Source: Rhodobacterales bacterium
GTDB taxonomy: Bacteria > Pseudomonadota > Alphaproteobacteria > Rhodobacterales > CAZPXZ01
Direction: 5' to 3'
DNA length: 64,000 nucleotides
Assembly: GCA_965221505.1 (NCBI GenBank)
Contig: CBDCSI010000001.1
Location: 2,197,835 to 2,261,834 of the forward strand
This document shows, in pieces, positions 1-59,720 of this stretch. How positions within the stretch are numbered: position 1 is the first letter of the stretch; each line of letters opens with the position of its first letter. The notes under the pieces were generated by a model. It was not told the origin of the DNA. It searched no databases and saw only the letters and a list, made by a program, of their open reading frames with translations. A program made the position numbers and the translations under genes.

Positions 1-2820
1 CGGGTCGAGATGATCGAGACCGAAATGCCGGTCGAGACGCTTGCCGAGCTCGTCATCGCGCAAGTGGCGAGCCGCCTCGCTCACGCTCGCTTCGAGAAGA
101 TTCAGATCTCGCGCCACCCTGTCATGGCGGAGACCCGATTTGGACAGGAGATTTGCCGTAATCCTCAGGCCGCCCTCAGCCAGACTGAGATCCAGCATCT
201 GCCCGGCCCGGGCCTCGTTGACTTCCTCGGGAGTACGCTTCTTCCGCGGCTGGAGCGGCTGACCCTTGGTGCCATTGAGCATGGCACGCGCTTTCTTCTT
301 GGATTCCGCGATATCGACCGGTCCTGGGGTTCCGTCCGCGCTCGCCGTTCCCCGTTCCGGACTGGCGACGCGCAATTCCACGTCGCCATCCGGGTTTGCG
401 TGTCCAGTGACGATGGACGCGGGCGGTGGAAATGGGGGCAATTCCCCCCCCCCTTCACATTTTGGCAACTCGGAATTCGCACAAACATCGCTGCCAGTTT
501 CAGTGCCTGTCGTCCCGTAAGGCTCGGCCCCAACGCCTTCCCGCGCGCCTCCCGCCAGGTCTTCCGCCGCGGTGCGAAGCGCTTCCACCGGACGGAACAG
601 CTCCGGTATCTTGCCCGGATCCTGTAGCGCAGTCGTGACGTCGTCCTCCACGGAGCCGACCGTCCCATAATGCGCGTGATAGGACACTCTCCCAACCGAG
701 CCGATCGCCACGAGAGTCGACTCCGATTCCGCCGGTGCAGGAAGGTAAATCTTCAAGAGTTTCGAGAGTTGCTCCTCGATGCGGCTGTCATGGGCGCGAA
801 GGGCCAGAAGGACCTGCCCGAGTTCCTGCCAGCCGTCCGTCGGTCCGCTGGTCTCCAGCCATTGCTCCGCATCGACCGAGGGAGGGATCAGGATTGGGCA
901 AATGATGTAGCCCATCGACTTTCCCTCGGAGAGCCGCATCGCCCGACCGACGGCCTGGATCACGTCGATGGGGCTCTTCCGGGCTTCGAGAAAGGCCACG
1001 GCACTCAAGGAAGGCGCATCGGTTCCCTCCCCGAAAATCCCGACGTTGAGAATCCCGTGCGGACGCTCCTGGTTCGCCGCAGCTAGCCGCGACTTGGCGT
1101 TCTCGCGCGCCATCACGTTGCTAGACGCGTCGAGATGTTCGAGGGCATACCCAGCCGCCGCTTGACCGGCGCGATTCGTGTCGAGCCAATCCTGCACCCA
1201 CTTTCGCACCATGTCGGATTCCAGTTGCTTGGCCATCTCCTTCGACTTGGCTACGGTGTTCATGAATCCGATGCAGGATCGGATCTCCGCACCATCTTCC
1301 GTCCGGGTGGCGCCCCCGAGAACGAGTGCCAGAGTGAGTCCGCGCAGGAAGTGGGTTGTCGTCAGAGCGTTTCGACCCGAACGACCCGAACCCGTCTTGG
1401 CCAACTGGTTTGCCGCCTCGTACGCCGCGGGATCGTTTACGCCGAGAGCGATAATCCGGTAGTCGGTCAACCAGCCGTTCCGGACGGCTTCCATGTAGCT
1501 CTTGCGGTACAGTTCGACGCCAAAGACCGTCTCGTCGTCCATGTCACGGACAACCCAGTCGTCGTTCCTCGTCCGTCGCCGTCTCGTATCGTAGACTCGG
1601 GGCGTCGCCGTCTGATAGACCCGGTAGCGAACCGGAAAGCGCTGATTGTCGTGGCAGACCGTGAAGTCCCGCAGTTGCGCCTCGATCTTCCGAATTCGAC
1701 GCAGGCCAGCCGTGCGATGGGCTTCGTCTGCAATCAGGACTTCCGCCGTGATACCGCTCTTGCAAAGGGCCTCGCCGATCCTGTGGCTGCTTTGGTAGGT
1801 TCCGAATATTACGCCGATCCGGTCGCGATTCCCGGTACCTTCGCGCATCCATTCGGCGATCCGATCCGCGTCTGTTGTCACCAGACCCTTCACCTCGCTT
1901 GCGCTGACGCGACTCAAGTCCGCCGTCGGATCGTCCTCGCGCAGTCCCTCGGATTTCGCCTTTCTGTCGAAGCCCGCCGTCTGGTCGGAACACACCGCCA
2001 AAGTACGTAACCCTGTCTCTGTGCAGGCCAAGAACTCGCGCCGAATCTGCGCAACCAGCGCGATGGAAGGACAGAGCACGATGGCCAGTTGGCCAGGTTC
2101 CGACAATTTCTCGACAATTCTCAGCGCGATCCGGGTCTTTCCGGTTCCGCAAGGCAAGACGATCTTTCCGCGTGCCTCGCCTCTGGGCAGTCCTCCGCTG
2201 TCTGAGCCTTCATGAGCTCGAAGGACCTCGAGACTTTTCCGTACGGCCTCGGCCTGCATGCAGCTTCGGGTTTGCCGGGCGTCCGGGTCGTCCGGCATCT
2301 CGCAGTGTCGGCACTCCTGCTCTCCGCTCGGCACAGACTGCTGATGCTTTCGAAGGTCGCTCTCGAAATTGACCAGCTTGATCGGATTCTCCACGGGCAC
2401 GGACGCCATGGCGTTCGAACTGAGCGGGTTGTTTCCGTTGGTGACGAGCCAGCGCTCCGACCACAGTTTCCCGGACGAGGCGGAGGCAAAGCTGTCTACC
2501 TCTTTCTTGGTGATTTGGCTTCCGCTGCCCGTATCGTCCAGTTTCCGGGCTTTGCACTGAATTGCGATGCGGGCTCCGTCGCCGGCTCGAATCGCGACCA
2601 CGTCGATCCCGATATCTTGCCGCGAGTAGTCGTGATTGGCTCGGCCCGGCCAGTCTTGCCAGAGCCAGCATTCCTTCACGTCCCACTCTGCGATGTGAGG
2701 GGCCGCGCGTTCGACAGCCGTCTCGAGCCAGGTTCCGTCCGTTTCAGTCCGGCTCTCCGCCTCTACTGTTTCGAGCGCTTCGGCAACCGATGACCTCGGC
2801 GCCTGACTCGTCGTCGCCAT
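1..2820 (-). CDS. Mrr-like PD-(D/E)xK nuclease fused to an SF2 (ResIII/DEAH-type) helicase; the 3' end runs off the window (940 codons visible)
   Basis: Absent from the ORF track because no stop lies in the window. My translation of the reverse strand from ATG (comp. 2820-2818, GGAGAAGG 3 nt upstream) stays open to position 1. The track lists no minus-strand ORF in this phase, consistent with one uninterrupted frame. Motifs read: GIDVVAI...IAIQCK (nuclease core, ~2520-2640), VLPCGTGKT (Walker A, 2131-2160), LIADEAHR (motif II, ~1714-1737), YQTATP (motif III), QAVGRAMR (motif VI, ~931-960). Confidence 0.8.
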   Translation of the reverse strand, partial: MATTSQAPRSSVAEALETVEAESRTETDGTWLETAVERAAPHIAEWDVKECWLWQDWPGRANHDYSRQDIGIDVVAIRAGDGARIAIQCKARKLDDTGSGSQITKKEVDSFASASSGKLWSERWLVTNGNNPLSSNAMASVPVENPIKLVNFESDLRKHQQSVPSGEQECRHCEMPDDPDARQTRSCMQAEAVRKSLEVLRAHEGSDSGGLPRGEARGKIVLPCGTGKTRIALRIVEKLSEPGQLAIVLCPSIALVAQIRREFLACTETGLRTLAVCSDQTAGFDRKAKSEGLREDDPTADLSRVSASEVKGLVTTDADRIAEWMREGTGNRDRIGVIFGTYQSSHRIGEALCKSGITAEVLIADEAHRTAGLRRIRKIEAQLRDFTVCHDNQRFPVRYRVYQTATPRVYDTRRRRTRNDDWVVRDMDDETVFGVELYRKSYMEAVRNGWLTDYRIIALGVNDPAAYEAANQLAKTGSGRSGRNALTTTHFLRGLTLALVLGGATRTEDGAEIRSCIGFMNTVAKSKEMAKQLESDMVRKWVQDWLDTNRAGQAAAGYALEHLDASSNVMARENAKSRLAAANQERPHGILNVGIFGEGTDAPSLSAVAFLEARKSPIDVIQAVGRAMRLSEGKSMGYIICPILIPPSVDAEQWLETSGPTDGWQELGQVLLALRAHDSRIEEQLSKLLKIYLPAPAESESTLVAIGSVGRVSYHAHYGTVGSVEDDVTTALQDPGKIPELFRPVEALRTAAEDLAGGAREGVGAEPYGTTGTETGSDVCANSELPKCEGGGELPPFPPPASIVTGHANPDGDVELRVASPERGTASADGTPGPVDIAESKKKARAMLNGTKGQPLQPRKKRTPEEVNEARAGQMLDLSLAEGGLRITANLLSKSGLRHDRVARDLNLLEASVSEAARHLRDDELGKRLDRHFGLDHLDP
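444..453. repeat. C10 (G10 on the coding strand) homopolymer inside the nuclease-helicase ORF
   Basis: Counted directly: attCCCCCCCCCCttc at 444-453. In the gene frame it encodes E-G-G-G-E within a low-complexity linker. Confidence 0.95.
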
Positions 2821-3092
2821 GTCCTTCTCCCGTCCTCGTGCCCGCCCGGAACGCCTGCCACGCGACACTGCGGTCCCTTCGGTTCGAGACCCGCAAGACT
2901 CGTCCGTGCAGCGCCTCTACAAGCCAACAGCCGACAAACCTTATGCGTCCCAGCCGTCCGCGTCGAGTCGGCACAATCCTGTCGACCCACTTCCTCCCGA
3001 CGAAGAATCCTCGTCGATCACCCGCTACCCACAGACCGGCTCCGCTCGTGCGACGGCCCCGAGCCGGCTCGCCGGCGCGGGAGTGACTCCAC

Positions 3093-5153
3093 TCAAACGC
3101 CGTCTCGCTGAATATCCTCCAGCCAGGCGCGGGCGAACACGCATCGACCGTTCTCGAACACGTCGAGACGGGCATGAACGCGAAAGTCGGCCTTGTCGCA
3201 GGTCAACTCCAGACGGGTGCGGATACGGACGTCGAGACCCTCGCGCCCGTAGCGGTCCTCACCCTTCAGGAGAAGCCTCGCCGAAAGCGGATCGTCGGGG
3301 TGAATCTCGAAGCGGCGGCGGATTACGTTGCCGCTGTGCCAGCCGCTCCGGTCCATCCGGGTAACCCCGCCGTCCTCCTCATGGACGAAGACGAGAGCGC
3401 CCGTTGCGTGATCCTCCTCGAACCGGGCCACGACCGGCGCGCCCGGGCGCAGGGCGGTGCGCGGGTCGAGCGGCGTCTTCTGCGGCCGAGGCAGCGGCGG
3501 AAGCTGCCCGTCCTCCTCCCGGTCCTCTCGAACGGGGAGCGACAATCGCGATACTCCGGTACGCAGGGTCAGCGTGACCGGCTCCGGCGACGGCCACGCG
3601 ATCGGCCAGAGTCCCGTCGAGAGCGCCAGACGGATGCGGCTGCCCTTCGCGAACCGGTACGCGTTGCCGTTCAGCACTACGGAAACCTCGAACGGTTCTC
3701 CGGGAGTGAGGTGCGTCACCGTCTCGTGACTGTCGTCATGGGTGAGATTGCGCAATCCGAAGCTGACACGATTCACGGCGCCGTCCGAGCGGACCTCCGA
3801 GAGCCGCAGGGCGATCTGAGCGACGGGGCGGTCGCTGGCGAGACGCAGGCGGACGATCGGCATCCCGAAGAACGCCAGGGGCTCCTCCAGCGGTTCGCTA
3901 TCGAAGCAGAGCGACATGGCGTCGTCCGGCCGCTGGTCGGACGGGCTCTCCGGCGCCGCCATTCCGTTGTGGCCCCAGAACGGGTTGGCGCGCCCGACCG
4001 TGGCCGGGGAGCGAAACGAAACGCCGTTCCCGGACTCGGGCGCTTCCCCGAGGCCGCTCCGGTTCAGATACCACTGCCGGTAGCTCTCTTCCGGCGGCGG
4101 CCAGCCGTGCTCGGCGATCCAGTGTCCCGGCACCTCCCGAAGCACCGTCGCCGGCCGGTAGCTGTCGTGCATCCAGGCGCGAATCGTCGGCTCCCGGTCG
4201 ATGCCGGTATCCCGGTCCTTGAGCCACCGGTCCCACCATCGGCAGCTCTCCTGCAGGAACCCCGCCGCCGGTGCCGGAAGCGCCTGGTGGGGATACTGGT
4301 GCCCCCAGGGGCCGATCCAGGCCCGCCTCGGCACGTCGAGCCCCTCCATCAGGCGCAGCGCGGGATCCGTATACGGATCGAGCCAGCCGCCGACCGCAAA
4401 TACGGGACAGGCGATGGCGGAGAAGTCCTCGCAGACCGAGCCGTGTTTCCAGAAGTCGTCCCGGCGCTGGTGCCGGAGCCACTCCAGCACCCAGGGCGGG
4501 CTGTTCTCCATTCGACGGAACCAGGCGTCCCGCCAGCCCTCCCCGAACAGGACCGGATCCGGCGGACGGGCGTTGTGGCCGAACATGGTGAAACACCAAT
4601 TCGGGTTTTCGAGAAGCTGGCACCCGCCCATGGTGTGAATGTCGGTGGCGTATCGGTCGTCGGTCGAACAGACGGTGACGATGGCCTTCAGCGCCGGAGG
4701 ACGCCGCGCGGCGACCTGCAGGCAGTTGAAGCCGCCCCAGCTCTTCCCGAACATGCCCACCCGGCCGGTGCACCAGGGCTGCGCCGCCAGCCAGGCGATT
4801 ACCTCCTCCGCATCGGCCAGTTCCCGTTCGAGATACTCCCCGAGCAGCACCCCGTCCGACTCGCCGCTGCCCCGGAGGTCGACCCGGAAGGACGCGTATC
4901 CCTGCCCGGCGAACCAGGGATGCATCGCCTCGTCCCGCGCCGACGTGCCGTCGCGCTTGCAATACGGAATGTATTCGAGGAGCGCCGGAACCGGGTTCTC
5001 CTCCGCATCTGCCGGCAGCCAGCACCGGTAGGCGAGCCGGGCTCCGTCTGCGAGCGGAATCCAGCCGTGTTCGATCTCGCGGACGGCTCTCGGAAGCGAG
5101 TCCGGATCGACGACGGAACCGTCGTCGTCGACCCCACGCTGCGCCGCAATCAT
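3093..5153 (-). CDS. CocE/NonD family hydrolase (S15 X-Pro dipeptidyl-peptidase-like)
   Basis: This is the C-terminal 686 aa of track ORF 3093..5762. It starts at MIAAQRG (comp. 5153) with GGAGGGAGG 6 nt upstream. It has the GKSWGG serine-nucleophile motif, and the ALLEYIPYCKRDG... and ...WLDPYTD regions are typical of CocE/NonD. The upstream 200 aa of the track ORF is R/G/P-rich junk. Confidence 0.85.
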   Translation of the reverse strand: MIAAQRGVDDDGSVVDPDSLPRAVREIEHGWIPLADGARLAYRCWLPADAEENPVPALLEYIPYCKRDGTSARDEAMHPWFAGQGYASFRVDLRGSGESDGVLLGEYLERELADAEEVIAWLAAQPWCTGRVGMFGKSWGGFNCLQVAARRPPALKAIVTVCSTDDRYATDIHTMGGCQLLENPNWCFTMFGHNARPPDPVLFGEGWRDAWFRRMENSPPWVLEWLRHQRRDDFWKHGSVCEDFSAIACPVFAVGGWLDPYTDPALRLMEGLDVPRRAWIGPWGHQYPHQALPAPAAGFLQESCRWWDRWLKDRDTGIDREPTIRAWMHDSYRPATVLREVPGHWIAEHGWPPPEESYRQWYLNRSGLGEAPESGNGVSFRSPATVGRANPFWGHNGMAAPESPSDQRPDDAMSLCFDSEPLEEPLAFFGMPIVRLRLASDRPVAQIALRLSEVRSDGAVNRVSFGLRNLTHDDSHETVTHLTPGEPFEVSVVLNGNAYRFAKGSRIRLALSTGLWPIAWPSPEPVTLTLRTGVSRLSLPVREDREEDGQLPPLPRPQKTPLDPRTALRPGAPVVARFEEDHATGALVFVHEEDGGVTRMDRSGWHSGNVIRRRFEIHPDDPLSARLLLKGEDRYGREGLDVRIRTRLELTCDKADFRVHARLDVFENGRCVFARAWLEDIQRDGV

Positions 5154-5194
5154 GGCATGCCTCCCTCCTGGCTTTCGCTCCCCGGCCGCACCGG

Positions 5195-7237
5195 TCAGGC
5201 CGCACGCTCCAGGGGATAGTGACACAGGACCCTCCGCCCCCCGGACAGCGTACGCTCGACCGGAATCTCGGCCCGGCAGCGATCCCCCGCCTTCGGACAG
5301 CGGGTGTGGAACTCGCAGCCCCGAGGCCGGTTGATCAGGCTCGGGATCTCTCCCTCGATGGGCGCCGCGTCGATTCGCCTCGACGGATCCGGCTGCGGAA
5401 TCCCCCGGATCAACGCGTCCGTATACGGGTGCGCCGGCGCCCGGAACACCGCTTCGCAGGGGCCGCGCTCCACGATCCGGCCGAGATACATGATCGCCAG
5501 GCTGTCGCAGATGTGGCGAATCGCCGGAAGGTTGTGGCTGACGAGCAAGTAGCTCAGTCCCCGCTCCTCCCGCAGTTGCGACAGCAGGTTCAGGATTTCT
5601 CCCTGGACCGACACGTCGAGGCCGGCCGTCGGTTCGTCCGCGACCACGAGCGAAGGCTCGAGCGAGAGGGCCCGGGCGACTCCCACCCGCCTCGCCTGCC
5701 CGCCCGAGAGCTCGTGCGGGTACCGGTCCAGCATCTGCTGCGGCAGCTGCACCATGTCGCACAACCGGCGAATCGCGGTTTCGGTACCGCCGTCGTTCGC
5801 CCGATGAATGTGGAACGGCTCGGCGAGAAGCGACCGCACCGTCTTGCGCGGGCTAAGCGATCCCACCGGATCCTGGAAGATCATGGCGAGACTGCGCCGG
5901 ACGCGGCTCCATTCGGCGGACGACAGGGCGCCGACGTCCCGCCCGTCCACCCGGATCGAGCCTTCCGCCGGTTCGAGCAGGCCGATGACCGTTCGGCCGA
6001 GCGTCGTCTTGCCCGAACCGCTCTCCCCGATCAGCCCGAGCGTACCGCCGCGCCTGAGCGAGAGGCTGGCGCCGAGAACCGCGTCGACGAACGGATCCGG
6101 ATTCCGGTCGAGAAACGCCCGCACCCTTCCCGCGACGCGGAACCGGACGCGCAGCTCCCGGATGTCGAGAAGGGCTTCCGATACGCCTTCCCCGGTCGCG
6201 GCTGCCTCGTCGGCCGGCGCGGCCGTCGCCGGCGAAGCGAAGTCGCCGAGCGACTCGGCAAAGTGACAGCGGGACGCCTGTCCGTCGGCCAACGCCCGCA
6301 GCGCCGGTCTGGCGTCCCTGCACTCCGCTCGCGCATGGAGGCAGCGAGGGGCGAAGGCGCATCCTTCGGGCACGAGCTGCAGGCTCGGCACCTCGCCGGG
6401 GATGGTCGGAAGCCGGCGGGACCGGTGCGGGCTTCGGGCGGGATCGCATTCCAGCAGCGCACGGGTGTAGGGGTGGCGGGGCGCATGGAATATCTGCTCG
6501 ACGCTGCCGGTCTCGACCACCTCCCCGGCGTACATCACCGCAACGCTGTCGCACAGGCTCGCGATCAGGCCGAGATTGTGGGAGACGAGCACCAGCGTCG
6601 CCTCCACCTGATCGTTCAGCTGCCGCAGGAGTTGCACGATCTGGGCCTCGAGCGTCACGTCGAGCGCCGTCGTCGGCTCGTCGAGAAAGACCAGCGGCGG
6701 TTCGAGCAGGAGCGCCATGGCGATGGCGGCACGCTGCCGCATCCCGCCGGAGAACTGGAACGGATATTGCCGGGCGCGCTCGGCCGGATCCGGAATTCCG
6801 ACCTTGCGGATCCAGTCCACGGCGCGCGCCTGGCGCGCCGCGAGCGGAAGCTCCGCCAGTCGCCGCTGCACGTCGAGCATCTGTCGGAGATAGGAGAGGA
6901 CCGGAATCTGCGACGTCATCGGGTCCTGGAACACGATGGAGACCTGTCCGCCCCGAAACCGCTGCAGCGCCGCCTCGTCCAGTCCGAGAACGTCCGTGTC
7001 GCCGACTCGAATCGAGCCGCTCCGCACCGTCGCGTTGCTCGCGAGGAGCCGGGAGATCGCCCAGACGAGGGTGGATTTTCCCGAGCCGCTCTCGCCGACG
7101 ATTCCCATCACGCGCCGCCGCGGCACCGCCAGCGAGACGTCCCGCAACGCATGTACGGGACCGTGCGGCGTCCGAAAGTCGACGCTCAACCCCGAGACTT
7201 CGAGCAGCGGGCGCGCATCCCGGCGCTCCGCGCTCAT
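5195..7237 (-). CDS. Fused double ATPase of a peptide/nickel-type ABC transporter (DppD/DppF-like halves)
   Basis: This is the tail of track ORF 5195..9109, starting at MSAERRDARPLLEVSGL. It has two Walker A sites ([18 protein letters not shown]) and two LSGGxxQR signatures. Its ATG overlaps the upstream permease stop (ATGA at 7234-7237). Confidence 0.9.
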   Translation of the reverse strand: MSAERRDARPLLEVSGLSVDFRTPHGPVHALRDVSLAVPRRRVMGIVGESGSGKSTLVWAISRLLASNATVRSGSIRVGDTDVLGLDEAALQRFRGGQVSIVFQDPMTSQIPVLSYLRQMLDVQRRLAELPLAARQARAVDWIRKVGIPDPAERARQYPFQFSGGMRQRAAIAMALLLEPPLVFLDEPTTALDVTLEAQIVQLLRQLNDQVEATLVLVSHNLGLIASLCDSVAVMYAGEVVETGSVEQIFHAPRHPYTRALLECDPARSPHRSRRLPTIPGEVPSLQLVPEGCAFAPRCLHARAECRDARPALRALADGQASRCHFAESLGDFASPATAAPADEAAATGEGVSEALLDIRELRVRFRVAGRVRAFLDRNPDPFVDAVLGASLSLRRGGTLGLIGESGSGKTTLGRTVIGLLEPAEGSIRVDGRDVGALSSAEWSRVRRSLAMIFQDPVGSLSPRKTVRSLLAEPFHIHRANDGGTETAIRRLCDMVQLPQQMLDRYPHELSGGQARRVGVARALSLEPSLVVADEPTAGLDVSVQGEILNLLSQLREERGLSYLLVSHNLPAIRHICDSLAIMYLGRIVERGPCEAVFRAPAHPYTDALIRGIPQPDPSRRIDAAPIEGEIPSLINRPRGCEFHTRCPKAGDRCRAEIPVERTLSGGRRVLCHYPLERAA

Positions 7238-8133
7238 CGCCGCAGCCTGAGCTTGGGGTCGATGGTGTCGCGCAAGGCCTCGGCGAAAAAGGTGAATCCG
7301 AGCGTGGTCAGCACCAGCGGGATTCCGCCGGCGACGACCGGCCAGTAGGTGTCGCGAAGCACGGTATAGCCTTCCGAGAGCACGGTGCCCCAGCTCGACA
7401 TGGGCGGCAGCACGCCGAGTCCGAGAAAACTGAGACCCGCTTCGACGGTCACCACCACCGGCACTTCCATGGCCGCCAGGATCAGCAGCGGTCCCACCAC
7501 GTTCGGCATCACGTGGTGCCACAGGATTCGGGGCATGCCGGCGCCGAGCGCGCGCTCGGCGAGAATGAACTCGGTCGACTTCAAGGAGAGCGTGGCGGTG
7601 CGCGCCACCCGTGCGTAGCCGGGTATCGAGGTGACGATCACCACCGCGAGCACCAGCGTGAGACTCGGCCCGGTCAGCGCGACGACGGTCAGCGCGAGCA
7701 TGATGGTGGGAAAGGACCGAATGGTGTCGAACGCCAGCAACAGGAAGTTGTCCAGCCACTTCGGACCGTATCCGGCCAGCATGCCGAGCAGGAGGCCGAT
7801 CGCGAGGGAGAGGGTGACGCCGATGCCGGCGACGTAGAGGGCGACCCGGCCGCCGTAGAGCACCCGGGAGAGGGTGTCGCGACCGAGCTGGTCGGTCCCC
7901 GCCGGGTGTTCGAGCGACGGGCCCTGCATCCGGGAGGGAATGTCGATCTTGTTCGGCGGATGCGGCGCGAGAACCGGGGCGAAGACCGCGGACCCGACGA
8001 AGAGGAGCACGAGGCAGAGCGAGACGACGCCGACCGGCCGGCGCAGGAATTCGCGCCAGAGCGCCCCGCGAACCCGCGCCCTCGCACGGGACGCGTCGGC
8101 GCCCGGCGCCCCGCGAAGCGAACCCGTCGACAT
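7234..8133 (-). CDS. ABC transporter permease (DppC/OppC-like)
   Basis: Track ORF of 299 aa with a multi-TM profile and an N-terminal ...FAPVLAPHPPNKIDI... segment typical of DppC-type permeases. Its start directly abuts the stop of the preceding permease (8134). Confidence 0.9.
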   Translation of the reverse strand: MSTGSLRGAPGADASRARARVRGALWREFLRRPVGVVSLCLVLLFVGSAVFAPVLAPHPPNKIDIPSRMQGPSLEHPAGTDQLGRDTLSRVLYGGRVALYVAGIGVTLSLAIGLLLGMLAGYGPKWLDNFLLLAFDTIRSFPTIMLALTVVALTGPSLTLVLAVVIVTSIPGYARVARTATLSLKSTEFILAERALGAGMPRILWHHVMPNVVGPLLILAAMEVPVVVTVEAGLSFLGLGVLPPMSSWGTVLSEGYTVLRDTYWPVVAGGIPLVLTTLGFTFFAEALRDTIDPKLRLRR

Positions 8134-9078
8134 CTACAGGGCCTGCCGGACGCGGGGGTCGAGCGCCGCGACCGCCAGATCCGCGACGAGGACGACGTTC
8201 ACGTAGAGCACGGTGGTGATCAGCACGGCGCCCTGGACGACCGGAAAGTTGCGGGTCATCACCATATCGAAGATCAGCTTGCCCACCCCGGGCCGGGCGA
8301 AGATGATCTCGGCGAATACCGCCCCCGAGAGAAGCGAGCCGAACCCCATTCCGATCAGGGTGAGCGTCGGGAGAACGGCGATCCGGAGGGCGTAGCCGTA
8401 GACGATCCTCCGCCGGGATATTCCGAGCGAACGCGCCGCGCGAATGTATGCCTCCCCCATGACTTCGAGCATCGACGCGCGCACCATTCGGGCGAGATAT
8501 CCCACCCAGCCCAGTCCGACCGCGAAGGCCGGCAGGACCAGATGGTGCAACTGGTCGACCGGATCCCCGGGATCGCCGGCGCCGATGATGGGGAACCAGC
8601 CGAGAACCAGGCCGAAAAGCAGGAGCGACCAGATCGACACCAGAAAGGACGGCACGGCGATGGTGCCGACCGAGAGCACGCCGGTGATGCGGTCGAGCCA
8701 GCTTCCGGGGCGCGTGGCGGCGACGCAGCCCAGCGGAATTCCGATCGCCGCCGCCCAGGCCAGCCCGGAGACCGCCAGCGCGAGCGTGAAGCGAAGCTGG
8801 TCGAGCACGGTCCGCGCGACGCTTTGCTCCGAGAAGATGTCCACGCCGAGGTCGCCCTGGACGGCGTGTTCCAGATAGCGCAGAAACTGGACCCAGACCG
8901 GCAGGTCGAGCCCGAGCCGTTCGGCGTAGCGCGCCTGGACTTCCGGCGTGGCGCGGGGGCCGAGCGCAATGGAGATCGGGTCGCCCGGCATCAGATGCAT
9001 AAGGGAGAAGAGAACCAGCAGCACGCAGAACACGATCAGCGCGGCGAGAAAACACCGCCGGATCGCGTAGTGCAGCAT
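8134..9078 (-). CDS. ABC transporter permease (DppB/OppB-like)
   Basis: Track ORF of 314 aa. MLHYAIRRCFLAALIVF...LMPGDP is the canonical DppB N-terminus. Confidence 0.9.
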   Translation of the reverse strand: MLHYAIRRCFLAALIVFCVLLVLFSLMHLMPGDPISIALGPRATPEVQARYAERLGLDLPVWVQFLRYLEHAVQGDLGVDIFSEQSVARTVLDQLRFTLALAVSGLAWAAAIGIPLGCVAATRPGSWLDRITGVLSVGTIAVPSFLVSIWSLLLFGLVLGWFPIIGAGDPGDPVDQLHHLVLPAFAVGLGWVGYLARMVRASMLEVMGEAYIRAARSLGISRRRIVYGYALRIAVLPTLTLIGMGFGSLLSGAVFAEIIFARPGVGKLIFDMVMTRNFPVVQGAVLITTVLYVNVVLVADLAVAALDPRVRQAL

Positions 9079-9148
9079 GGTCGGGGCGTATCGGGACTCC
9101 CCGGCGCACCCGAAGGGCGCGCCGGGGACCGTTCGTCGGGCTCGGCCG

Positions 9149-19591: not shown

Positions 19592-20370
19592 ACCATTGCG
19601 GGCGACGCGCCGCAAGACCTCACTGAGCAGGGCCCGAGGCAACCAAAACGCCAAGAGCGATTACGGCGACGACGCGACTCGGTTGATCGAGAGCGTTCTG
19701 AATTGCGACCCTGAGCCGACCCGATTCGCTGCCGAGCGATAGAACGAGGCCGTCCCGACCCTCCCCCCGCTACATTCGGTCGCGAATAGGAGAAAGTCCA
19801 GGTGTGCGGCGGGGGACCGGAAACCATAGAGAGATATCAGGGTCGCCGGGACGAGTGTCCGACGACGCTGCCCACGTCCCCTTCCGGTCGGCGGACGGCA
19901 AGGAGTCGCCCCGCACTGGAAGACCGGTCGAGGATCGCCGGTTGCGTGATCGCCTCGCGGCGGCAAGCGCCCCAGAGATGTCGACATGGATGCAAATTGA
20001 CGCGCGTTTTGCCGAAAATTTGCGCTCCCGGGTGCGGCGAGCCGGCTGCTTTCGCTTCCCGGTCCCGAAGCGCATCCGGCATCTCCACCCCGTCGAGCAT
20101 CGCCCGATCCCGAGCACGTCGCTCGGCATTGCAGCGCTGAGTCGCCGCACTTCGGTCCGAACGAGGCGAGACGGATGCCACCTCGGCTCGCTCCCGCCGC
20201 AGGGTGCTGTCCCCTGCAACCAGCAAACCCCGTAGTCCATGCCGGAAACGCCGCAAGCGCATTTCACGAGCACCGATCGAGCAGGAAGCGAGCCAGTGCG
20301 ACAACAAGCTAGTCATGCCTGGTCGAAGCGGATATGTTGATTCAAAACGACACAATAGGGAGTCTCGAAT

Positions 20371-21918
20371 ATGCCAAACTTCAATCGACGCCAAGCCTTG
20401 GCGTCCTCGGCAGCCTTGTCGTTCATCGCGACCCTGCCGCGAATCGCTTTGGCAGGTGGGCACGGCGATACTCTCCGAGTCGCGATCGCCGGCGAAACCG
20501 GCGACCTCGACCTGCTACAAAACGTATCAACGCTTTCGTCCTACACGGTCGTCTTTGACGGGCTCATTCATTATGGCCCCGGCGGAAAGCTGGAGCCAGG
20601 CCTCGCCACGTCGTGGGCGGTAGCCGAAGACGGAAAATCGATCACCTTCGACCTCCGCGAGGGCGTGACCTTTTCCGACGGAACGTCGTTCGACGCAGAG
20701 GCCGCGAAGTGGAACCTCGAACGCTGGATGGGCGTCGAAGACTTCTCTTGGATCGGAATATCCGACGCATACGAGAACGTCGTCATAAACGGCCCAAACC
20801 GGATCACCGTGAACCTGACGCGACCGGTGCCGGCAGCGCTTCTGGAACTCACGATCGTGCGCCCGGTGCGCTTCCTCTCGCCGAACGCGGACGACGGCCA
20901 ACCCGTCGGGACCGGCCCCTGGATCGTCGAGAGTTACTCGTCGAGCGAGACGATACTCACCAGAAACGATTCCTATTGGGGAGAGAAACCCTCGTTCGGT
21001 CGGCTGGAACTCAAGGTGGTCCCGGACGAATTGGCTCGCGCCAACGCTCTGCGGGCAGGCGAGCTCGACGTGATCGGCGGCGACTGGGTCGCCCCGCTCT
21101 CCCCGCGCCGTGCCCGTGCGCTCGAAGGCGAAGGCATGACCATCGTGGCCGAACCGGGGACCGCAACGACGATCCTCGGCTACTCGCCGAAATCGCCGGT
21201 CATGTCGGAATTCGGGGTGCGGGAAGCGGTGTTCCTGGGCATCGACCGCGCCGCCGTCGCGCAGGTTCTCTTCGAGGGTTTCGCCGACCCGACAGTCGAC
21301 GTCTTTCCGACGACCGTCCCGACAGCCGGTGCCCGTCGCGACGTACCCGCCCGCGACGCGGCCGCTGCTCGGGCGGCCCTGGAAGCGGCAGGATGGAGCG
21401 GCGACGGGTCCGGCTGGACGAAGGGCGGCCAGGCGCTCGAGATCGACTTCCTCGTATCCGAGGAATCCTTCCCCGGCTCGCGCCGGATCGCCGAGATGAT
21501 CCAGGCGATGCTGACTGAGATCGGCTTCGCGGTAAACGTCTCGTCGGTCGACAACGCCACGATGCACGAACGGCGCCCCAACTTCGAATACGACCTGACC
21601 TTCTTCGCGACCTACGGCGCGCCCTACGACCCGCACGGATCGCTTGGAGCTTCGTTCGTGTCGACGGTGGATACGGGTCCGGACGGCAAGATCTACGTTT
21701 CCGACGAACTCGATACGGTGGTTCTCGCTGCGCTGGAGGCTTCGGGCGAGGCGCGGGAAGCCGCGATGCAGGGCGTCTATGACTGGCTCCACGACAACGT
21801 GGCGGCCTGTCCGCTTCTGGTGACGCAGAGGATCTGGGCGGTGCATCCTCGCGTACAGGGCTTCAGCCTGCCGGCGACCGACTACGACATCCCCTACAAG
21901 GGGCTGACGATCGGCTGA
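20371..21918 (+). CDS. ABC transporter substrate-binding protein, family 5 (nickel/peptide type)
   Basis: Track ORF of 515 aa with AGGGAG 8 nt upstream. It has a Tat-like N-terminus (MPNFNRRQALASSAAL) and the family-5 core ...GLATSWAVAEDGKSITFDLREGVTFSDG.... Confidence 0.88.
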   Translation: MPNFNRRQALASSAALSFIATLPRIALAGGHGDTLRVAIAGETGDLDLLQNVSTLSSYTVVFDGLIHYGPGGKLEPGLATSWAVAEDGKSITFDLREGVTFSDGTSFDAEAAKWNLERWMGVEDFSWIGISDAYENVVINGPNRITVNLTRPVPAALLELTIVRPVRFLSPNADDGQPVGTGPWIVESYSSSETILTRNDSYWGEKPSFGRLELKVVPDELARANALRAGELDVIGGDWVAPLSPRRARALEGEGMTIVAEPGTATTILGYSPKSPVMSEFGVREAVFLGIDRAAVAQVLFEGFADPTVDVFPTTVPTAGARRDVPARDAAAARAALEAAGWSGDGSGWTKGGQALEIDFLVSEESFPGSRRIAEMIQAMLTEIGFAVNVSSVDNATMHERRPNFEYDLTFFATYGAPYDPHGSLGASFVSTVDTGPDGKIYVSDELDTVVLAALEASGEAREAAMQGVYDWLHDNVAACPLLVTQRIWAVHPRVQGFSLPATDYDIPYKGLTIG

Positions 21919-21943
21919 CGATCGGGCGAACGGGGCGGGACCC

Positions 21944-22885
21944 GTGCGACGCGTCTTCCTGAGGCGCGCGGGTCTCGCCCTGTTATTGATGCTGGCCGCC
22001 ACCGCGCTAACTTTCGCGCTGGTGACGGCCGCCCCCGGCAACGTCGCCGCGCTGATCGCCGAACGGGCGGCGGGCGCGGGCGCGGACGGCCAGATGATTG
22101 CCCGGATCGCCAAAGAACTCGGCCTGAACGATCCGCTTCCGGTGCGGTATTTCAGATGGCTCGGGGACGCGTTCGCCGGCGACTTCGGGGTTAGCCTGCG
22201 CACGGGCAAGCCGATCTCCGAGGAGTTCGCGGAGCGTATCCCGGTAACCGCCGCCCTGCTCGCGGGCGGCGGTATCCTCGCATTGCTCTATTCCCTGGCG
22301 CTGGGGATCGTAGGAGCCGCTTCGAACGGCGGAGGCACGGACCGGCTCCTGCACGGTATCGCCCTTGTCGGCGCCTCGACGCCGAACTTCTTTGTCGCAG
22401 CGCTTCTGGTGATCGTCTTTGCCGTCGGCCTCGGTTGGGTCCCGAGTTTCGGCCTTTACGGCTGGACTTCGTGGCTGCTGCCTTGCGTGACCATCTCGCT
22501 CTTTCCGGGATCGGTGCTTGCCAGAGTAGTGCGCGTCAATCTGCAAGAGGCCATGGCGCGTCCCTTCGCGACGACCGGATTCGCGAAGGGAATGAGCCGC
22601 GGCGAAGTTCTCGTACGCGAGGCGCTGCCGAATATAGCCATCCCCTACATCACGACGTTCGGCGCACAGTTCACGCTGATGATCATCGGCGCCATCGTGG
22701 TCGAACGCGTCTTCGGCCTGAACGGCATCGGCGCTTTCTTCATCGAGGCGATCCGGTTTCGAGACTTCGTCGGCATGCAGGCCGTCTTGACCCTGTTCGT
22801 CGTCTTCTTCGTCACCGTGAACCTGCTCGTCGACCTCGTCGCCATGCTGATCGACCCTCGGTTGCGTAGAGCCAGGAGGGTGTGA
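21944..22885 (+). CDS. ABC transporter permease (NikB/DppB-like)
   Basis: Track ORF of 313 aa with a GTG start. It has the ...APGNVAALI... N-terminal segment and a multi-TM profile. Confidence 0.88.
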   Translation: MRRVFLRRAGLALLLMLAATALTFALVTAAPGNVAALIAERAAGAGADGQMIARIAKELGLNDPLPVRYFRWLGDAFAGDFGVSLRTGKPISEEFAERIPVTAALLAGGGILALLYSLALGIVGAASNGGGTDRLLHGIALVGASTPNFFVAALLVIVFAVGLGWVPSFGLYGWTSWLLPCVTISLFPGSVLARVVRVNLQEAMARPFATTGFAKGMSRGEVLVREALPNIAIPYITTFGAQFTLMIIGAIVVERVFGLNGIGAFFIEAIRFRDFVGMQAVLTLFVVFFVTVNLLVDLVAMLIDPRLRRARRV

Positions 22886-22949
22886 GATAACGATCCCCAA
22901 GCTTCCCTGGCTCGTCCTTTCTCCGGCTCTGACGTTCGTACTCGTCGGT

Positions 22950-23792
22950 GTGTTCGCGCCGCTCCTGATGACGCACGACCCCGCAGCGCAGGACTACACT
23001 GCCATCCTCCAAGGGCCGTCGACGTCGCACTGGCTGGGGACCGACTACCTCGGACGCGACCTCTGGAGCCGGATTGTTGCAGGTGCGCGCACCTCGCTCG
23101 TCGCGATGTCCTTCGTGCTCGTAGCCGCTCTCGTGATCGGGGTCGTCGTGGGCTCGGTCGCGGGGTATGTGGGCGGTCTCGTCGAGACCGTCCTGATTTC
23201 GCTTGTCGACATCGCACTCGCGTTGCCCTCCCTCATTATCGCTCTGGCCCTGATGGGCGTGTTCTCGGGCGAAAATTTCGACTGGTTGGACAATTACTGG
23301 AAAATGGTTCTTGCGCTCACGCTGGCCTGGTGGGCCAACTATGCGCGGATGAGCCGGGCCGTCGTCGTGGCGGAACTGCAGCAACCGTATATCGAAGCCG
23401 CCCGCGTCATGGGCGCATCGCATATCTGGATTTTCGCGCGCCATATACTGCCGCACGTGCTCGGACTCGTGGTCGTCTATGCGTCTGCCGACGCCGGGGC
23501 GCTCGTCCTCGCTATCGCGACCCTGTCGTTTCTCGGCCTCGGCGTCGCCCCCCCGACGGCCGAGTGGGGGCAGATGCTGGTCGACGGGATGAGCTACATC
23601 GAGGACCACCCGAGCCTCGTGGTCGTTCCCGGTCTTGCGTTGACCGCCGTAGTCGTCAGTTTCAACCTGCTGGGCGAGGCGTTCGCGCTCCAGAAAGTTC
23701 CGCGCGCGCTCAGAGGGCGTGCGCTCGACCGCAAACGCGCCAAACGGACGGATGAGGAATTGGCCCGCAATACTGCGAAAGGCCCGACATGA
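22950..23792 (+). CDS. ABC transporter permease (NikC/DppC-like); the true start is probably upstream (about 22887-22893) at a non-canonical codon
   Basis: Track ORF of 280 aa, starting at GTG 22950. The same frame is open back to 22851 and encodes the expected first TM helix (IPKLPWLVLSPALTFVLVGVFAPLL), but no ATG/GTG/TTG occurs there. Confidence 0.8.
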   Translation: MFAPLLMTHDPAAQDYTAILQGPSTSHWLGTDYLGRDLWSRIVAGARTSLVAMSFVLVAALVIGVVVGSVAGYVGGLVETVLISLVDIALALPSLIIALALMGVFSGENFDWLDNYWKMVLALTLAWWANYARMSRAVVVAELQQPYIEAARVMGASHIWIFARHILPHVLGLVVVYASADAGALVLAIATLSFLGLGVAPPTAEWGQMLVDGMSYIEDHPSLVVVPGLALTAVVVSFNLLGEAFALQKVPRALRGRALDRKRAKRTDEELARNTAKGPT

Positions 23793-24796
23793 ACGAGCCG
23801 GTCTACGCCGTCGAAGACCTCGTCATAGACCTCTTCACCCCTTCCGCCTCCGTCCGGGCCGTCGACGGCGTGAGCTTCGTCGTCAACGCAGGCGAAACTC
23901 TCGCCGTCGTCGGTGAGAGCGGTTCGGGCAAGACGGTCATGACGCTGGGACCTCTCGGGCTCATGCCGGAGGGGGTCACGATCGACCTGAAGGGGTCGGT
24001 CCGGGCCGCTGGCCGCGACCTGCTGGAGATGACGCAGAAGGAACTCTCTGCAGTCCGCGGAAGTCGATTCGGGGTGATATTCCAGGATCCGATGAGCGCA
24101 CTGAACCCGATGCTGAAAATCGGACCGCAACTCGCAGAGCAGGCACGCCGGTTTGCCGGTCTCTCGGCGGAGGCGGCGCGCCGGGAAGCCGTGACGCTCC
24201 TCGCCCGGACCGGCATTCCGGACCCCGAGGACCGATATGACCGCTATCCCCACGAACTGTCGGGCGGAATGCTGCAACGCGCGATGATCGCCCTCGCCCT
24301 CGCCGCTCGACCCGATATCCTGATCGCCGACGAACCGACCACCGCGCTCGACGCGACCGTGCAGGCGCAGATTCTCGCGCTTCTGCGCCAGATCCAGGCC
24401 GAGGACGGCATCGCGGTCGTCCTCATCACCCACGACATCGGCGCGGTATCCGTCCTCGCCGACAGGGTGCTGGTCTTGTACGCGGGCCGGACCGCCGAGG
24501 AAGGCAGCGCCATCGACGTGTTGACCGCACCTGTCCACCCCTACACCCGGGGCCTTCTGGCATCCGTGCCGGACTTCCGCTCCGACGACGCATCGGGCAC
24601 GCGAGAGATTCCGGGCCTCCCGCCGGATCAGACCCGCCTCTTGCCGGGGTGCCGCTTCGCCGACCGGTGTGCGCAGGCGATCGACCCTTGCCGGTCGATT
24701 CGCCCGGAATTGACCCGCGTCGGCGGCATTGAGAGTGCGCATCGGGCAGCCTGCCCCGTCGCCGTATCGAGCGAGGAAATCGGCAGACATGCCTGA
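23789..24796 (+). CDS. ABC transporter ATP-binding protein (NikD/DppD-like)
   Basis: Track ORF of 335 aa with [16 protein letters not shown] and ADEPTTALD. Its start overlaps the permease stop. Confidence 0.9.
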
Positions 24797-58696: not shown

Positions 58697-58699
58697 AGT

Positions 58700-59422: not shown

Positions 59423-59580
59423 CGCACACCCTCCCTTCGACGATTCGTTTCCGGACCGCTCGATCGCCCAGTGGCCCGGCGCGCCGACCGGATCGAATGC
59501 CCGGCGCGCGCACTTTCTCGCCGAAACGCCATATCCTGTCAACAGGCAATGGCCACTTCCGCGGAAACTCGGCGCAAGAA

Positions 59581-59720
59581 GACTGTATTCATATCAATAT
59601 AATTTGTTATTTTACAAAAGATTACAAACGTATATTGATATTGTTTATCAGGATACACCGGAGATTCCGGCTTGCAAATTCGAGTCCGATTTTTTACACG
59701 AATCGGGATCTGTACTTGCA
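59581..59720. promoter_or_regulatory. AT-rich island (about 20% G+C over 59581-59650 by my count) upstream of the rpn-like gene; probably promoter/operator DNA
   Basis: It is the only strongly AT-rich stretch I saw in the window. It contains several -35/-10-like hexamers on the minus strand, and a perfect TTGACA lies at comp. 59537-59542 just downstream. Confidence 0.4.
59591..59641. repeat. Perfect 11-bp inverted repeat ATATCAATATA (59591-59601) / TATATTGATAT (59631-59641), 29-bp spacer
   Basis: Read directly and checked by reverse-complementing the right arm. Confidence 0.9.

What the first reader, a model, noticed from the sequence alone, without database searches (positions are those of the whole stretch)
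1..2820. Nuclease::helicase gene at the left edge, invisible to the ORF track, resembling the front half of a Type ISP-like restriction or defence enzyme
The reverse strand carries one uninterrupted frame of 940 codons from ATG (comp. 2820) to position 1. Its domain order is an Mrr-like PD-(D/E)xK core (GIDVVAI…IAIQCK), then a ResIII/DEAH SF2 motor (LPCGTGKT, DEAH, QTATP, QAVGRAMR), then a low-complexity acidic/Gly/Pro linker, and then the start of another domain (…LRITANLLSKSGLRHDRVARDLNLLEASVSEAARHLRDDELGKRLD…) that continues beyond the window. An N-terminal Mrr nuclease followed by an SF2 translocase is the architecture of single-polypeptide Type ISP restriction-modification enzymes and of several helicase-nuclease defence proteins. 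Which of these it is depends on what follows off-window (methyltransferase/TRD or something else). The gene sits directly next to an ordinary ABC operon, so the system, if it is one, lies mostly to the left of the window.
Basis: partly seen in the sequence, partly recalled or inferred. Interest (0 to 1): 0.6.

Follow-up and report, generated by a model that had tools for sequence, protein, structure and literature searches.

The report
Front of a Type ISP-like restriction enzyme
The left edge of the window holds the first ~57% of one giant anti-phage restriction-modification gene (DNA cutter plus ATP-driven motor); its relatives show that a DNA methyltransferase and DNA-reading part lie just off the window, so this is an ordinary kind of defence gene from an undescribed branch.

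Summary
Window comp(1..2820) is one stop-free frame of 940 codons (chance ~1e-13) with a good ribosome-binding site, and it runs off the left edge. Residues 1-690 are an Mrr-family nuclease plus SF2 DEAH motor, homologous to the solved Type ISP enzymes LlaBIII and LlaGI (E 9e-57 and 7e-53). Every residue shown by mutagenesis to matter for LlaGI cleavage is present.

Residues 691-940 contain a clade-specific insert with a low-complexity linker. They end in the first helices of a C-terminal module.

In 78 of 80 related genomic loci (51-63% identity) the same frame continues to ~1,660-1,850 aa. The missing part carries methyltransferase motifs I and IV (NPPF). It folds (pLDDT 92) as a gamma-class N6-adenine DNA methyltransferase with a likely recognition domain, closest to BpuSI, CamA, PglX and M.TaqI.

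No partner gene is conserved and there is no synteny. The family is spread across at least eight phyla and sits in defence islands and on plasmids.

Verdict: this is the front part of a self-contained Type ISP-architecture restriction-modification enzyme. The clade's methyltransferase/recognition module is not the LlaGI type and is missed by the PADLOC full-length Type ISP profile. Interest is modest.

The parts
1..2820 (-). Partial CDS: codons 1-940 of a Type ISP-architecture restriction-modification enzyme. It runs off the left edge, and about 720-910 further codons are expected off-window.
   Evidence: No stop in 940 codons. 51-63% identical over residues 1-940 to 80 genomic loci, most of them with ORFs of 1,660-1,850 aa.
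2822..2831 (-). Shine-Dalgarno sequence GGGAGAAGGA directly upstream of the ATG at 2820
   Evidence: Read from the sequence.
2371..2733 (-). Mrr-family PD-(D/E)xK nuclease domain (residues ~30-150), with E33, D69-I-G71-I-D73 and Q88-C-K90
   Evidence: Pfam Mrr_cat_2, 8.7e-16. Aligns to the LlaBIII nuclease. Its residues correspond to LlaGI E38, D74, D78, Q92 and K94, which were tested by mutagenesis (PMC2790908). E33, D69, D73, Q88 and K90 are conserved in 57 of 57 relatives and G71 in 55 of 57.
2260..2313 (-). Clade-specific C170-x-H172-C173...C187 cluster between nuclease and motor. It may bind zinc (inference).
   Evidence: Invariant in A2. Present in 52-55 of 57 intact relatives. Absent from the ~1,470-aa relatives and from classical Type ISP enzymes.
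751..2259 (-). SF2 helicase-like ATPase/translocase (residues ~188-690): motif I GTGKT 225-229, motif II DEAH 365-368, motif III TAT 404-406, motif VI QAVGRAMR 622-629
   Evidence: Pfam ResIII 1.5e-16, DEAD and Helicase_C. LlaBIII 4xqk E 9e-57 over residues 51-688. PADLOC PDLC03597 E 4e-94. Motif residues are conserved in 56-57 of 57 relatives.
586..750 (-). Post-motor conserved segment (residues ~691-745). It has no similarity to LlaBIII/LlaGI or to any Pfam family.
   Evidence: Alignment A2. The BLAST and HMM matches to Type ISP enzymes mostly end near residue 688, and none extends beyond about residue 730.
421..585 (-). Low-complexity Gly/Glu/Pro/Ala linker (residues ~746-800), variable in length and sequence across the family
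   Evidence: Composition. This is the gappiest and among the least conserved stretches of the family alignment.
181..420 (-). Clade-specific conserved basic block (residues ~801-880; consensus EPTQIITGK.N.DGS.ELR.DTVAR.KP..DG.RG.VDI.KSK.KAK.MIN.G.G.R). Function unknown.
   Evidence: Alignment A2, with G812, R817, M847 and G853 invariant. No BLAST similarity in the ~1,470-aa relatives or in classical Type ISP enzymes.
1..180 (-). Start of the helical region leading into the methyltransferase module (residues ~881-940: NLLSKSGL...RDLNLLE...EAARHL...LDRHFGLDHL). It is shared with the wider family.
   Evidence: Invariant N890, L891, L892, S895, G896, L897, R901, R904 and D905. The same consensus appears in the 72-sequence alignment that includes the ~1,470-aa relatives. 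The model of the region that follows is helical.
2821..3092 (.). Intergenic spacer and compositional boundary. GC is 0.61-0.64 in the gene and 0.67-0.72 in the flanking housekeeping genes.
   Evidence: Composition profiles. No tRNA, repeat, promoter-like or terminator-like match was found there.

Best explanation
This is the 5' ~57% of a gene for a self-contained, single-polypeptide, ATP-dependent restriction-modification enzyme with the Type ISP architecture.

Shown: an N-terminal Mrr-family nuclease and an SF2 DEAH motor homologous to LlaBIII and LlaGI, with every catalytic residue intact. Behind them lie a clade-specific insert and the beginning of a helical region.

Inferred from relatives: the gene continues off-window for about 720-910 codons. 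That part encodes a gamma-class N6-adenine DNA methyltransferase (motif I DLACGSG, motif IV NPPF) and a C-terminal DNA-recognition domain.

Likely mechanism, by analogy with LlaGI/LlaBIII and not tested here: the methyltransferase/recognition unit binds an asymmetric target and methylates one strand of host sites. On unmodified invading DNA the motor hydrolyses ATP and translocates downstream. When two enzymes converge from head-to-head sites, the Mrr nucleases nick repeatedly until the duplex breaks.

The gene was probably acquired horizontally. It has the lowest GC of any 2-kb block in the window, and its relatives sit in unrelated contexts.
For: The open frame and start are real. Pfam finds Mrr_cat_2, ResIII and Helicase_C. 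LlaBIII matches at E 9e-57 over residues 51-688 and LlaGI at 7e-53. PADLOC REase_MTase_IIG PDLC03597 matches at E 4e-94; this is the profile a PGAP-annotated Type ISP enzyme matches end to end.

The nuclease residues correspond to the LlaGI positions tested by mutagenesis (PMC2790908). Nuclease and motor catalytic residues are conserved in 55-57 of 57 relatives.

The relatives continue in frame. Motif I lies ~177 aa and NPPF ~322 aa after the LDRHF anchor in nearly every protein long enough to reach them. 78 of 80 genomic loci reach the family's C-terminus, and about 60 are intact ORFs of 1,660-1,850 aa.

More distant carriers of the same module score above the Pfam thresholds for N6_Mtase (43 bits) and Eco57I (46 bits). 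The module model has pLDDT 92.4. It matches BpuSI (E 1e-15), CamA (TM 0.67), PglX/BrxX, M.BseCI, HsdM and M.TaqI (TM 0.68).

There is no conserved neighbour and no synteny. Relatives lie in a defence island next to an integrase, on a plasmid-like contig, and beside conjugation genes. The family is spread over many phyla at 51-63% identity. The 2-kb block inside the gene has the lowest GC in the window.
Against: The methyltransferase/recognition part of this particular gene is off-window, so it has not been seen. About 10 of the 80 related loci are frameshifted and about 6 have premature stops, so the unseen part could be broken here.

The C-terminal module of the clade has no significant sequence similarity to the LlaGI/LlaBIII methyltransferase-TRD. 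The region between motor and methyltransferase differs from the LlaBIII coupler. Coupling of recognition to translocation may therefore not work exactly as in LlaGI.

The C-terminal region is not hypervariable across the clade, as might be expected of a specificity domain. No biochemical or methylome data exist for any member.
Confidence: 0.85

Rival explanations
1. It is a decayed copy (pseudogene) of such an enzyme. The front 940 codons are intact, but the unseen remainder is frameshifted, truncated or deleted, so the cell has no working enzyme.
For: About 10 of 80 related loci are split by frameshifts and about 6 carry premature stops. One frameshift-split form recurs on 22 contigs. Many database homologues end early.
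Against: Within the window there is no stop in 940 codons and every catalytic and invariant family residue is kept. About three quarters of the related loci are intact. Many of the truncated database entries come from assemblies with low read depth (e.g. contig names ending 5x or 16x), so they may be assembly errors.
Confidence: 0.1
2. It is a nuclease-helicase defence or restriction protein without its own methyltransferase: a modification-dependent (Type IV-like) or otherwise methyltransferase-free effector that only shares its front half with Type ISP enzymes.
For: Only the nuclease-motor part is visible in the window. PADLOC gives weak local helicase hits to PbeA, mREase_IV, DpdF and DrmA.
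Against: Those hits cover short helicase stretches at E 1e-12 to 0.04, against 4e-94 for the Type ISP-type profile. The last 60 window residues already belong to the conserved region that leads into the methyltransferase in all relatives. 78 of the 80 closest loci carry the methyltransferase in the same frame or just downstream.
Confidence: 0.03
3. It is a housekeeping DNA-repair or replication-restart helicase (XPB/Rad25-, RadD-, UvrB- or PriA-like) that carries an accessory nuclease.
For: NCBIfam lists weak local hits to XPB, PriA, UvrB, RadD and Hef.
Against: Every one of those scores is far below its family cutoff, e.g. XPB 21 vs 610 bits and PriA 19 vs 230. There is no synteny and no conserved neighbour across 80 loci. 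The family has a patchy distribution over many phyla at similar identity, sits in mobile or defence contexts, and is fused to a DNA methyltransferase.
Confidence: 0.01

Closest known systems
[quoted passage not shown]
   Same: Both are single polypeptides with the same domain order: Mrr nuclease, SF2 DEAH motor, linker region, gamma-class N6-adenine methyltransferase, C-terminal recognition domain. The nuclease-motor part is homologous (about 30% identity over ~640 residues, E 9e-57). They share the Mrr signature D-x-G-x-D...Q-x-K and the GTGKT form of motif I. Both kinds sit on mobile elements.
   Different: Beyond about residue 690 there is no detectable sequence similarity. The methyltransferase has NPPF rather than NPPY and lies ~855-905 residues after DEAH instead of ~700. 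The clade has extra elements: a Cys/His cluster, a low-complexity linker and a basic block. The PADLOC Type ISP-type profile covers only positions ~44-650 of 1,646, whereas a classical enzyme covers 3-1640.
PGAP-annotated 'type ISP restriction/modification enzyme' genes on plasmids of cultured bacteria (Dermacoccus, Phaeobacter, Klebsiella, Arthrobacter)
   Same: 29-32% identity over residues ~10-690, with the same architecture and a similar length (1,607-1,653 aa).
   Different: Their C-terminal halves (NPPY type) do not match the clade's C-terminal profile: HMMER E 0.2-0.4, and hhalign E 0.048 around motif IV only. The few clade members that carry a source name are called 'DEAD/DEAH box helicase family protein' or 'hypothetical protein'.
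~1,470-aa Mrr-SF2-methyltransferase proteins that carry the same NPPF-type C-terminal module (e.g. P0195, P0199, P0209)
   Same: They have the same C-terminal module (profile E ~1e-102 to 1e-113 over its full length) and the same front domains.
   Different: The front 690 residues are only 31-34% identical, no closer than classical Type ISP enzymes. They lack the Cys/His cluster, and BLAST finds no similarity to window residues ~700-940, so they probably lack the ~150-200-aa linker and basic block too.
Gamma-class N6-adenine DNA methyltransferases with attached recognition domains: BpuSI (Type IIG), CamA, BREX PglX/BrxX, M.BseCI, M.TaqI
   Same: These are the best fold matches to the family's off-window module: E 1e-15 to 1e-9, TM 0.66-0.68 normalised to CamA or M.TaqI.
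   Different: Sequence identity is only 10-14%. None of them is fused to an Mrr nuclease plus SF2 motor. No BREX or other partner genes are conserved next to the family.

Membership tests
Type ISP restriction-modification enzymes | N-terminal Mrr-family nuclease with motif I Glu, motif II D-x-G-x-D and motif III Q-x-K | tested here: met
   Pfam Mrr_cat_2, 8.7e-16. E33, D69-I-G71-I-D73 and Q88-C-K90 align with LlaBIII. They correspond to LlaGI E38, D74, D78, Q92 and K94. E33, D69, D73, Q88 and K90 are conserved in 57 of 57 relatives and G71 in 55 of 57.
Type ISP restriction-modification enzymes | SF2 helicase-like ATPase directly after the nuclease, homologous to that of LlaGI/LlaBIII | tested here: met
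   ResIII, DEAD and Helicase_C. LlaBIII E 9e-57 and LlaGI E 7e-53. Motifs GTGKT, DEAH, TAT and QxxGRxxR are conserved in 56-57 of 57 relatives.
Type ISP restriction-modification enzymes | All-alpha-helical coupler domain between motor and methyltransferase | tested here: inconclusive
   There is no sequence similarity to LlaBIII beyond its residue ~655-671. Window residues 691-880 are clade-specific and include a disordered-looking linker. The first ~145 residues of the modelled module are helical, but residues 691-895 were not modelled.
Type ISP restriction-modification enzymes | Gamma-class N6-adenine methyltransferase domain in the same polypeptide | not testable with these tools
   For the window gene this part lies off-window, and the source contig could not be found. 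In relatives the feature is met: motif I precedes motif IV NPPF, 78 of 80 loci carry the domain, distant carriers score above the Pfam N6_Mtase and Eco57I thresholds, and the fold matches BpuSI, CamA, M.TaqI and HsdM.
Type ISP restriction-modification enzymes | C-terminal target-recognition domain forming a unit with the methyltransferase | tested here: inconclusive
   This could be tested only in relatives. About 430 well-folded residues follow NPPF. The fold matches to the two-domain enzymes CamA, M.BseCI and M.TaqI reach TM 0.61-0.68 of the whole target. I did not inspect the domain-level alignment of the recognition part, and the region is not hypervariable.
Type ISP restriction-modification enzymes | Single self-contained polypeptide that needs no separate M or S subunit | tested here: met
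   57 intact ORFs of 1,664-1,850 aa. The largest cluster of homologous flanking ORFs occurs in only 5 loci and on either side of the gene.
Type ISP restriction-modification enzymes | End-to-end match to the catalogued Type ISP model (LlaGI-type methyltransferase-TRD) | tested here: not met
   PADLOC PDLC03597 covers only positions 43-649 for the window protein and 44-646 for full-length P0094, against 3-1640 for a classical enzyme. HMMER and hhalign find no significant similarity between the C-terminal halves.
Type ISP restriction-modification enzymes | ATP-driven translocation, cleavage after collision of enzymes from head-to-head sites, and one-strand methylation of an asymmetric site | not testable with these tools
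   These are biochemical properties described for LlaGI/LlaBIII. No data exist for this clade.
Classical Type I (HsdR) or Type III (Res) restriction subunits | RecB-like nuclease (Type I) or nuclease C-terminal to the helicase (Type III), with obligatory HsdM/HsdS or Mod partner genes | tested here: not met
   The nuclease is Mrr-type and N-terminal. NCBIfam Type I R models score 12.7-12.8 bits against cutoffs of 550-729. No conserved partner gene was found.
Housekeeping repair/replication helicases (XPB/Rad25, RadD, UvrB, PriA, Hef) | Full-length match above the family cutoff, and conserved synteny | tested here: not met
   Scores of 14-27 bits against cutoffs of 230-750. No synteny.
BREX (PglX/BrxX methyltransferase) | PglX-type methyltransferase encoded with BrxA/B/C/L or PglZ neighbours | tested here: not met
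   The only resemblance is at fold level in the methyltransferase, plus weak motif I hits. No conserved neighbours.

The most novel reading that the evidence does not exclude
The clade is a distinct, uncharacterised subtype of single-polypeptide ATP-dependent restriction-modification enzyme. In it, the Type ISP nuclease-motor has been joined to a different methyltransferase/recognition module, closest in fold to BpuSI, CamA and PglX. The junction is a long flexible linker plus a conserved basic block, and there is an added Cys/His (possibly zinc) element. Recognition and translocation would then be coupled differently from LlaGI. The unusually even conservation of the recognition region could mean a shared target among bacteria of many phyla, apparently in sponge-type microbiomes.
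Probability: 0.35. Interest if true: 0.5.

Novelty: new variant of a known kind. Interest (0 to 1): 0.33.

Why it matters
For genome annotation, this clade has 443 confirmed loci among species-representative genomes. The few members that carry a source name are called 'DEAD/DEAH box helicase' or 'hypothetical protein'. PADLOC's Type ISP-type profile covers only its front third. Recognising it adds a widespread restriction-modification family to defence inventories of uncultured Chloroflexota, Proteobacteria, Entotheonella and others.

For mechanism, it is a natural module swap: the Type ISP nuclease-motor is attached to a non-LlaGI methyltransferase/recognition unit through a flexible linker. 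This could test how much the LlaBIII coupler geometry matters for turning site recognition into translocation.

For this window, it marks the right-hand boundary of a horizontally acquired segment. Otherwise it is an ordinary kind of defence gene.

Tried and rejected
Recovering the missing DNA failed in three ways. The exact 60-base left edge was not found in genome contigs or metagenome contigs. An exact-sequence look-up for a neighbouring protein found nothing, but the ORF I used (3174-5219, plus strand) turned out to be a spurious shadow ORF of the real minus-strand genes.

The first structure prediction of the C-terminal module, from 8 sequences, gave pLDDT 48 and was discarded.

Sequence searches of the C-terminal module found nothing significant: the PDB with one sequence, the PDB with an 8-sequence profile (best E 0.66), HMMER against four annotated Type ISP enzymes, and hhalign (E 0.048 around motif IV only). 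Fold comparison was needed to identify the module.

I first thought that most family members are truncated. That was mostly an artefact of gene calls on error-prone assemblies, because most of the 80 species-representative loci are intact.

No tRNA, repeat, promoter-like or terminator-like match marks the island boundary at 2821-3092. A literature search for sponge-symbiont Type ISP enzymes found nothing specific.

Full report
**Observation.** Translating window 1-2820 on the minus strand gives 940 codons without a stop, starting at the ATG at 2820. With the local base composition the chance of that is about 1.5e-13. A Shine-Dalgarno sequence, GGGAGAAGGA, lies at 2831-2822, and the N-terminus agrees with those of the homologues. 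The ORF is missing from the ORF list only because that tool omits ORFs that run off an end.

**What is in the window.** Pfam finds Mrr_cat_2 (residues 45-141, 8.7e-16), ResIII (188-407, 1.5e-16), DEAD and Helicase_C (555-630). Among solved structures the only strong matches are the Type ISP enzymes LlaBIII (4xqk, E 9e-57, residues 51-688) and LlaGI (5ffj, E 7e-53). PADLOC's REase_MTase_IIG model PDLC03597 matches at E 4e-94, but only over profile positions 43-649 of 1,646.

The LlaGI mutagenesis paper tested E38, D74, D78, Q92 and K94 (PMC2790908). D74, D78 and K94 are essential for cleavage, and E38 and Q92 contribute. The window protein has E33, D69-I-G71-I-D73 and Q88-C-K90 at the aligned positions. 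These residues, and the motor motifs GTGKT, DEAH, TAT and QAVGRAMR, are conserved in 55-57 of 57 intact relatives. NCBIfam models for repair and replication helicases and for Type I R subunits score far below their cutoffs.

**Residues 691-940.** Similarity to LlaBIII/LlaGI and to plasmid-borne Type ISP enzymes mostly ends near residue 688, and no match extends beyond about residue 730. What follows is:
- a conserved segment (about 691-745);
- a Gly/Glu/Pro/Ala-rich linker of variable length (about 746-800);
- a conserved basic block (about 801-880);
- a helical stretch (881-940, NLLSKSGL...RDLNLLE...LDRHFGLDHL) that is shared with a wider family.

The in-frame homology and invariant residues through residue 940 show that nucleotides 1-700 belong to the gene. 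A C170-x-H172-C173...C187 cluster between nuclease and motor is specific to this clade (52-55 of 57). It is absent from the ~1,470-aa relatives and from classical Type ISP enzymes. It may bind zinc, but that is inference only.

**What lies off-window.** I could not recover the source contig, so this part rests on relatives. A protein search gave 3,542 hits, and the best 120 are mostly 51-59% identical over 99% of the query. Nearly every homologue long enough to reach those positions has methyltransferase motif I (D-L-A-C-G-S-G) about 177 residues, and motif IV (NPPF) about 322 residues, after the LDRHF anchor. The window protein ends seven residues after that anchor.

Many database entries end early, some with out-of-frame-looking tails. 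Species-representative genomes give a cleaner picture. 443 loci encode a relative, and I examined the best 80 (51-63% identity). In 78 of them the match to the full-length member P0094 reaches its last residues. About 60 are single ORFs of 1,660-1,850 aa, about 10 are frameshifted, and about 6 have premature stops.

**Nature of the missing module.** At the sequence level the module is highly divergent. It has no significant PDB match with one sequence or with an 8-sequence profile, and only weak Pfam methyltransferase hits.

An exhaustive profile search found 1,988 clusters carrying the module. They fall into ~1,650-aa, ~1,470-aa and ~750-850-aa (stand-alone) proteins. The ~1,470-aa carriers are also Mrr + ResIII + Helicase_C proteins. 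In them the module scores above the Pfam thresholds for N6_Mtase (43 bits) and Eco57I (46 bits). Homology is therefore established transitively.

A 72-sequence alignment gave an AlphaFold model with pLDDT 92.4 and pTM 0.92. Foldseek against the PDB returned:
- the Type IIG enzyme BpuSI (E 1.2e-15);
- CamA (TM 0.67 of the target);
- BREX PglX/BrxX;
- M.BseCI;
- Type I HsdM;
- M.TaqI (TM 0.68).

The module is thus a gamma-class N6-adenine DNA methyltransferase, probably with an attached DNA-recognition domain.

**Relation to classical Type ISP enzymes.** The architecture is that of Type ISP: Mrr nuclease, SF2 ATPase, connecting region, methyltransferase, recognition domain, all in one chain (PMC4666363, PMC4872093).

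The methyltransferase/recognition unit, however, is not the LlaGI type. As a positive control, a PGAP-annotated Type ISP enzyme from a Dermacoccus plasmid matches PDLC03597 over positions 3-1640 (2,152 bits). Full-length P0094 matches only positions 44-646, and the ~1,470-aa relatives only 5-677. The clade's C-terminal profile does not hit four plasmid-borne Type ISP-type proteins, three of them annotated as Type ISP (E 0.2-0.4). hhalign aligns only the motif IV region (E 0.048). The classical enzymes have NPPY about 700 residues after DEAH, while this clade has NPPF about 855-905 residues after it.

The window's front 690 residues are about equally distant (29-34% identity) from classical Type ISP enzymes and from the ~1,470-aa NPPF-type relatives.

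**Context and evolution.** On the same (minus) strand and upstream of the gene lie an S15-family X-Pro dipeptidyl-peptidase gene (3093-~5100) and an Opp-type peptide ABC transporter (fused ATPase 5195-~7233, OppC 7234-8133, OppB 8134-9078). GC is 0.61-0.64 inside the gene and 0.67-0.72 in those neighbours. The block 1-2000 has the lowest GC of all 2-kb blocks in the window. No tRNA or repeat marks the junction.

Relatives sit in unrelated places:
- a defence island next to a phage integrase, AbiE, ThsB-TIR and Fic genes;
- a 102-kb plasmid-like contig with RepC, TraI and toxin-antitoxin genes;
- between a 7-deazaguanine (Dpd-like) cluster and conjugation genes;
- alone among metabolic genes.

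Across about 73 loci with full flanks, no flanking ORF family occurs in more than 5 loci, and none matches the window's flank. Carriers belong to Chloroflexota, Gammaproteobacteria, Ca. Entotheonella, Acidimicrobiia, Binatia, Paracoccaceae, Latescibacterota, Cyanobacteria and Ca. Porisulfidus, all at similar identity. This is the signature of a horizontally transferred, self-contained defence gene. It excludes the housekeeping-helicase alternative.

**Mechanism.** Shown: an intact Mrr active site and an intact SF2 ATPase, both homologous to those of LlaBIII. Inferred from relatives: a methyltransferase and recognition domain in the same chain. Inferred by analogy with LlaGI/LlaBIII:
- one-strand methylation of an asymmetric site protects the host;
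- on unmodified DNA, ATP hydrolysis releases the enzyme from its site and drives downstream translocation;
- convergent collision of two enzymes from head-to-head sites activates repeated nicking, which ends in a double-strand break.

The clade's different connecting region and methyltransferase/recognition unit leave open whether coupling works the same way.

**Verdict.** This is the 5' ~57% of a Type ISP-architecture restriction-modification gene from a divergent and poorly annotated clade. It is a known kind of system in a new variant, and the interest is modest. The main uncertainties are whether the unseen 3' part is intact in this genome, and the lack of any biochemical data for the clade.

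Noticed in passing
L002 10,900-11,815 (also L003-L005): In one Chloroflexi lineage the gene is split by a frameshift. The 1,407-aa ORF ends at ...LLGCRRSH, and the rest of the protein (...WPAERISRGDWTAAIWRS... to ...EPHVRGFGYNQF) continues in another frame as a 277-aa ORF. The same split protein occurs on 22 contigs from JGI, ENA and NCBI, so it is a real allele and not a one-off assembly error.
   Followed up: partly
window 2260-2313 (residues 170-187): A C-x-H-C...C cluster between nuclease and motor is conserved in 52-55 of 57 clade members. It is absent from classical Type ISP enzymes and from the ~1,470-aa relatives. It might be a zinc site.
   Followed up: partly
L012-L091 (record titles): All 80 best genomic relatives are MAGs. 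Several names point to sponge microbiomes: Ca. Entotheonella, Ca. Porisulfidus, and isolate codes such as SB06xx, IRC4, RHO1 and CAR3. That reading rests on my own knowledge. Ankyrin- and Sel1-repeat genes flank the copy on L007. The family may be enriched in sponge symbionts.
   Followed up: no
L025 and L046 (both on contig CAXXLO010000002.1): One Caldilineaceae genome carries two copies of the gene about 83 kb apart. One of them (L025) is frameshifted.
   Followed up: no
L002 448-5395: A 7-deazaguanine DNA-modification-like cluster (TGT/DpdA-like, QueC, QueD/PTPS, radical-SAM QueE, DndB/DpdB-like) lies directly upstream of the relative P0032, followed by type IV secretion/conjugation genes. 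This looks like a mobile defence island.
   Followed up: no
window 3174-7348, plus strand: Two long plus-strand ORFs (681 and 709 aa) have no Pfam hit. They are shadow ORFs of the real minus-strand peptidase and ABC ATPase genes in this high-GC DNA. A 1,304-aa minus-strand ORF (5195-9109) likewise runs across three real genes.
   Followed up: yes
L012 residues ~1441-1520 (family alignment): Apart from the linker, the least conserved folded stretch of the family lies here, in the C-terminal recognition region (conservation 0.39-0.44 against 0.55-0.87 elsewhere). It is a candidate specificity determinant. There is no hypervariable TRD of the kind seen in many restriction-modification families.
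   Followed up: partly
window 20001-24000 and 58001-60000: These are the other blocks of lower GC (0.64-0.65 against a window mean near 0.68). They might be further acquired segments.
   Followed up: no
P0183, P0206, P0212 and similar: The NPPF-type methyltransferase/recognition module also occurs as ~750-850-aa proteins without nuclease or motor. I did not determine whether these are genuine stand-alone (orphan or Type II-like) methyltransferases or fragments of split genes.
   Followed up: no
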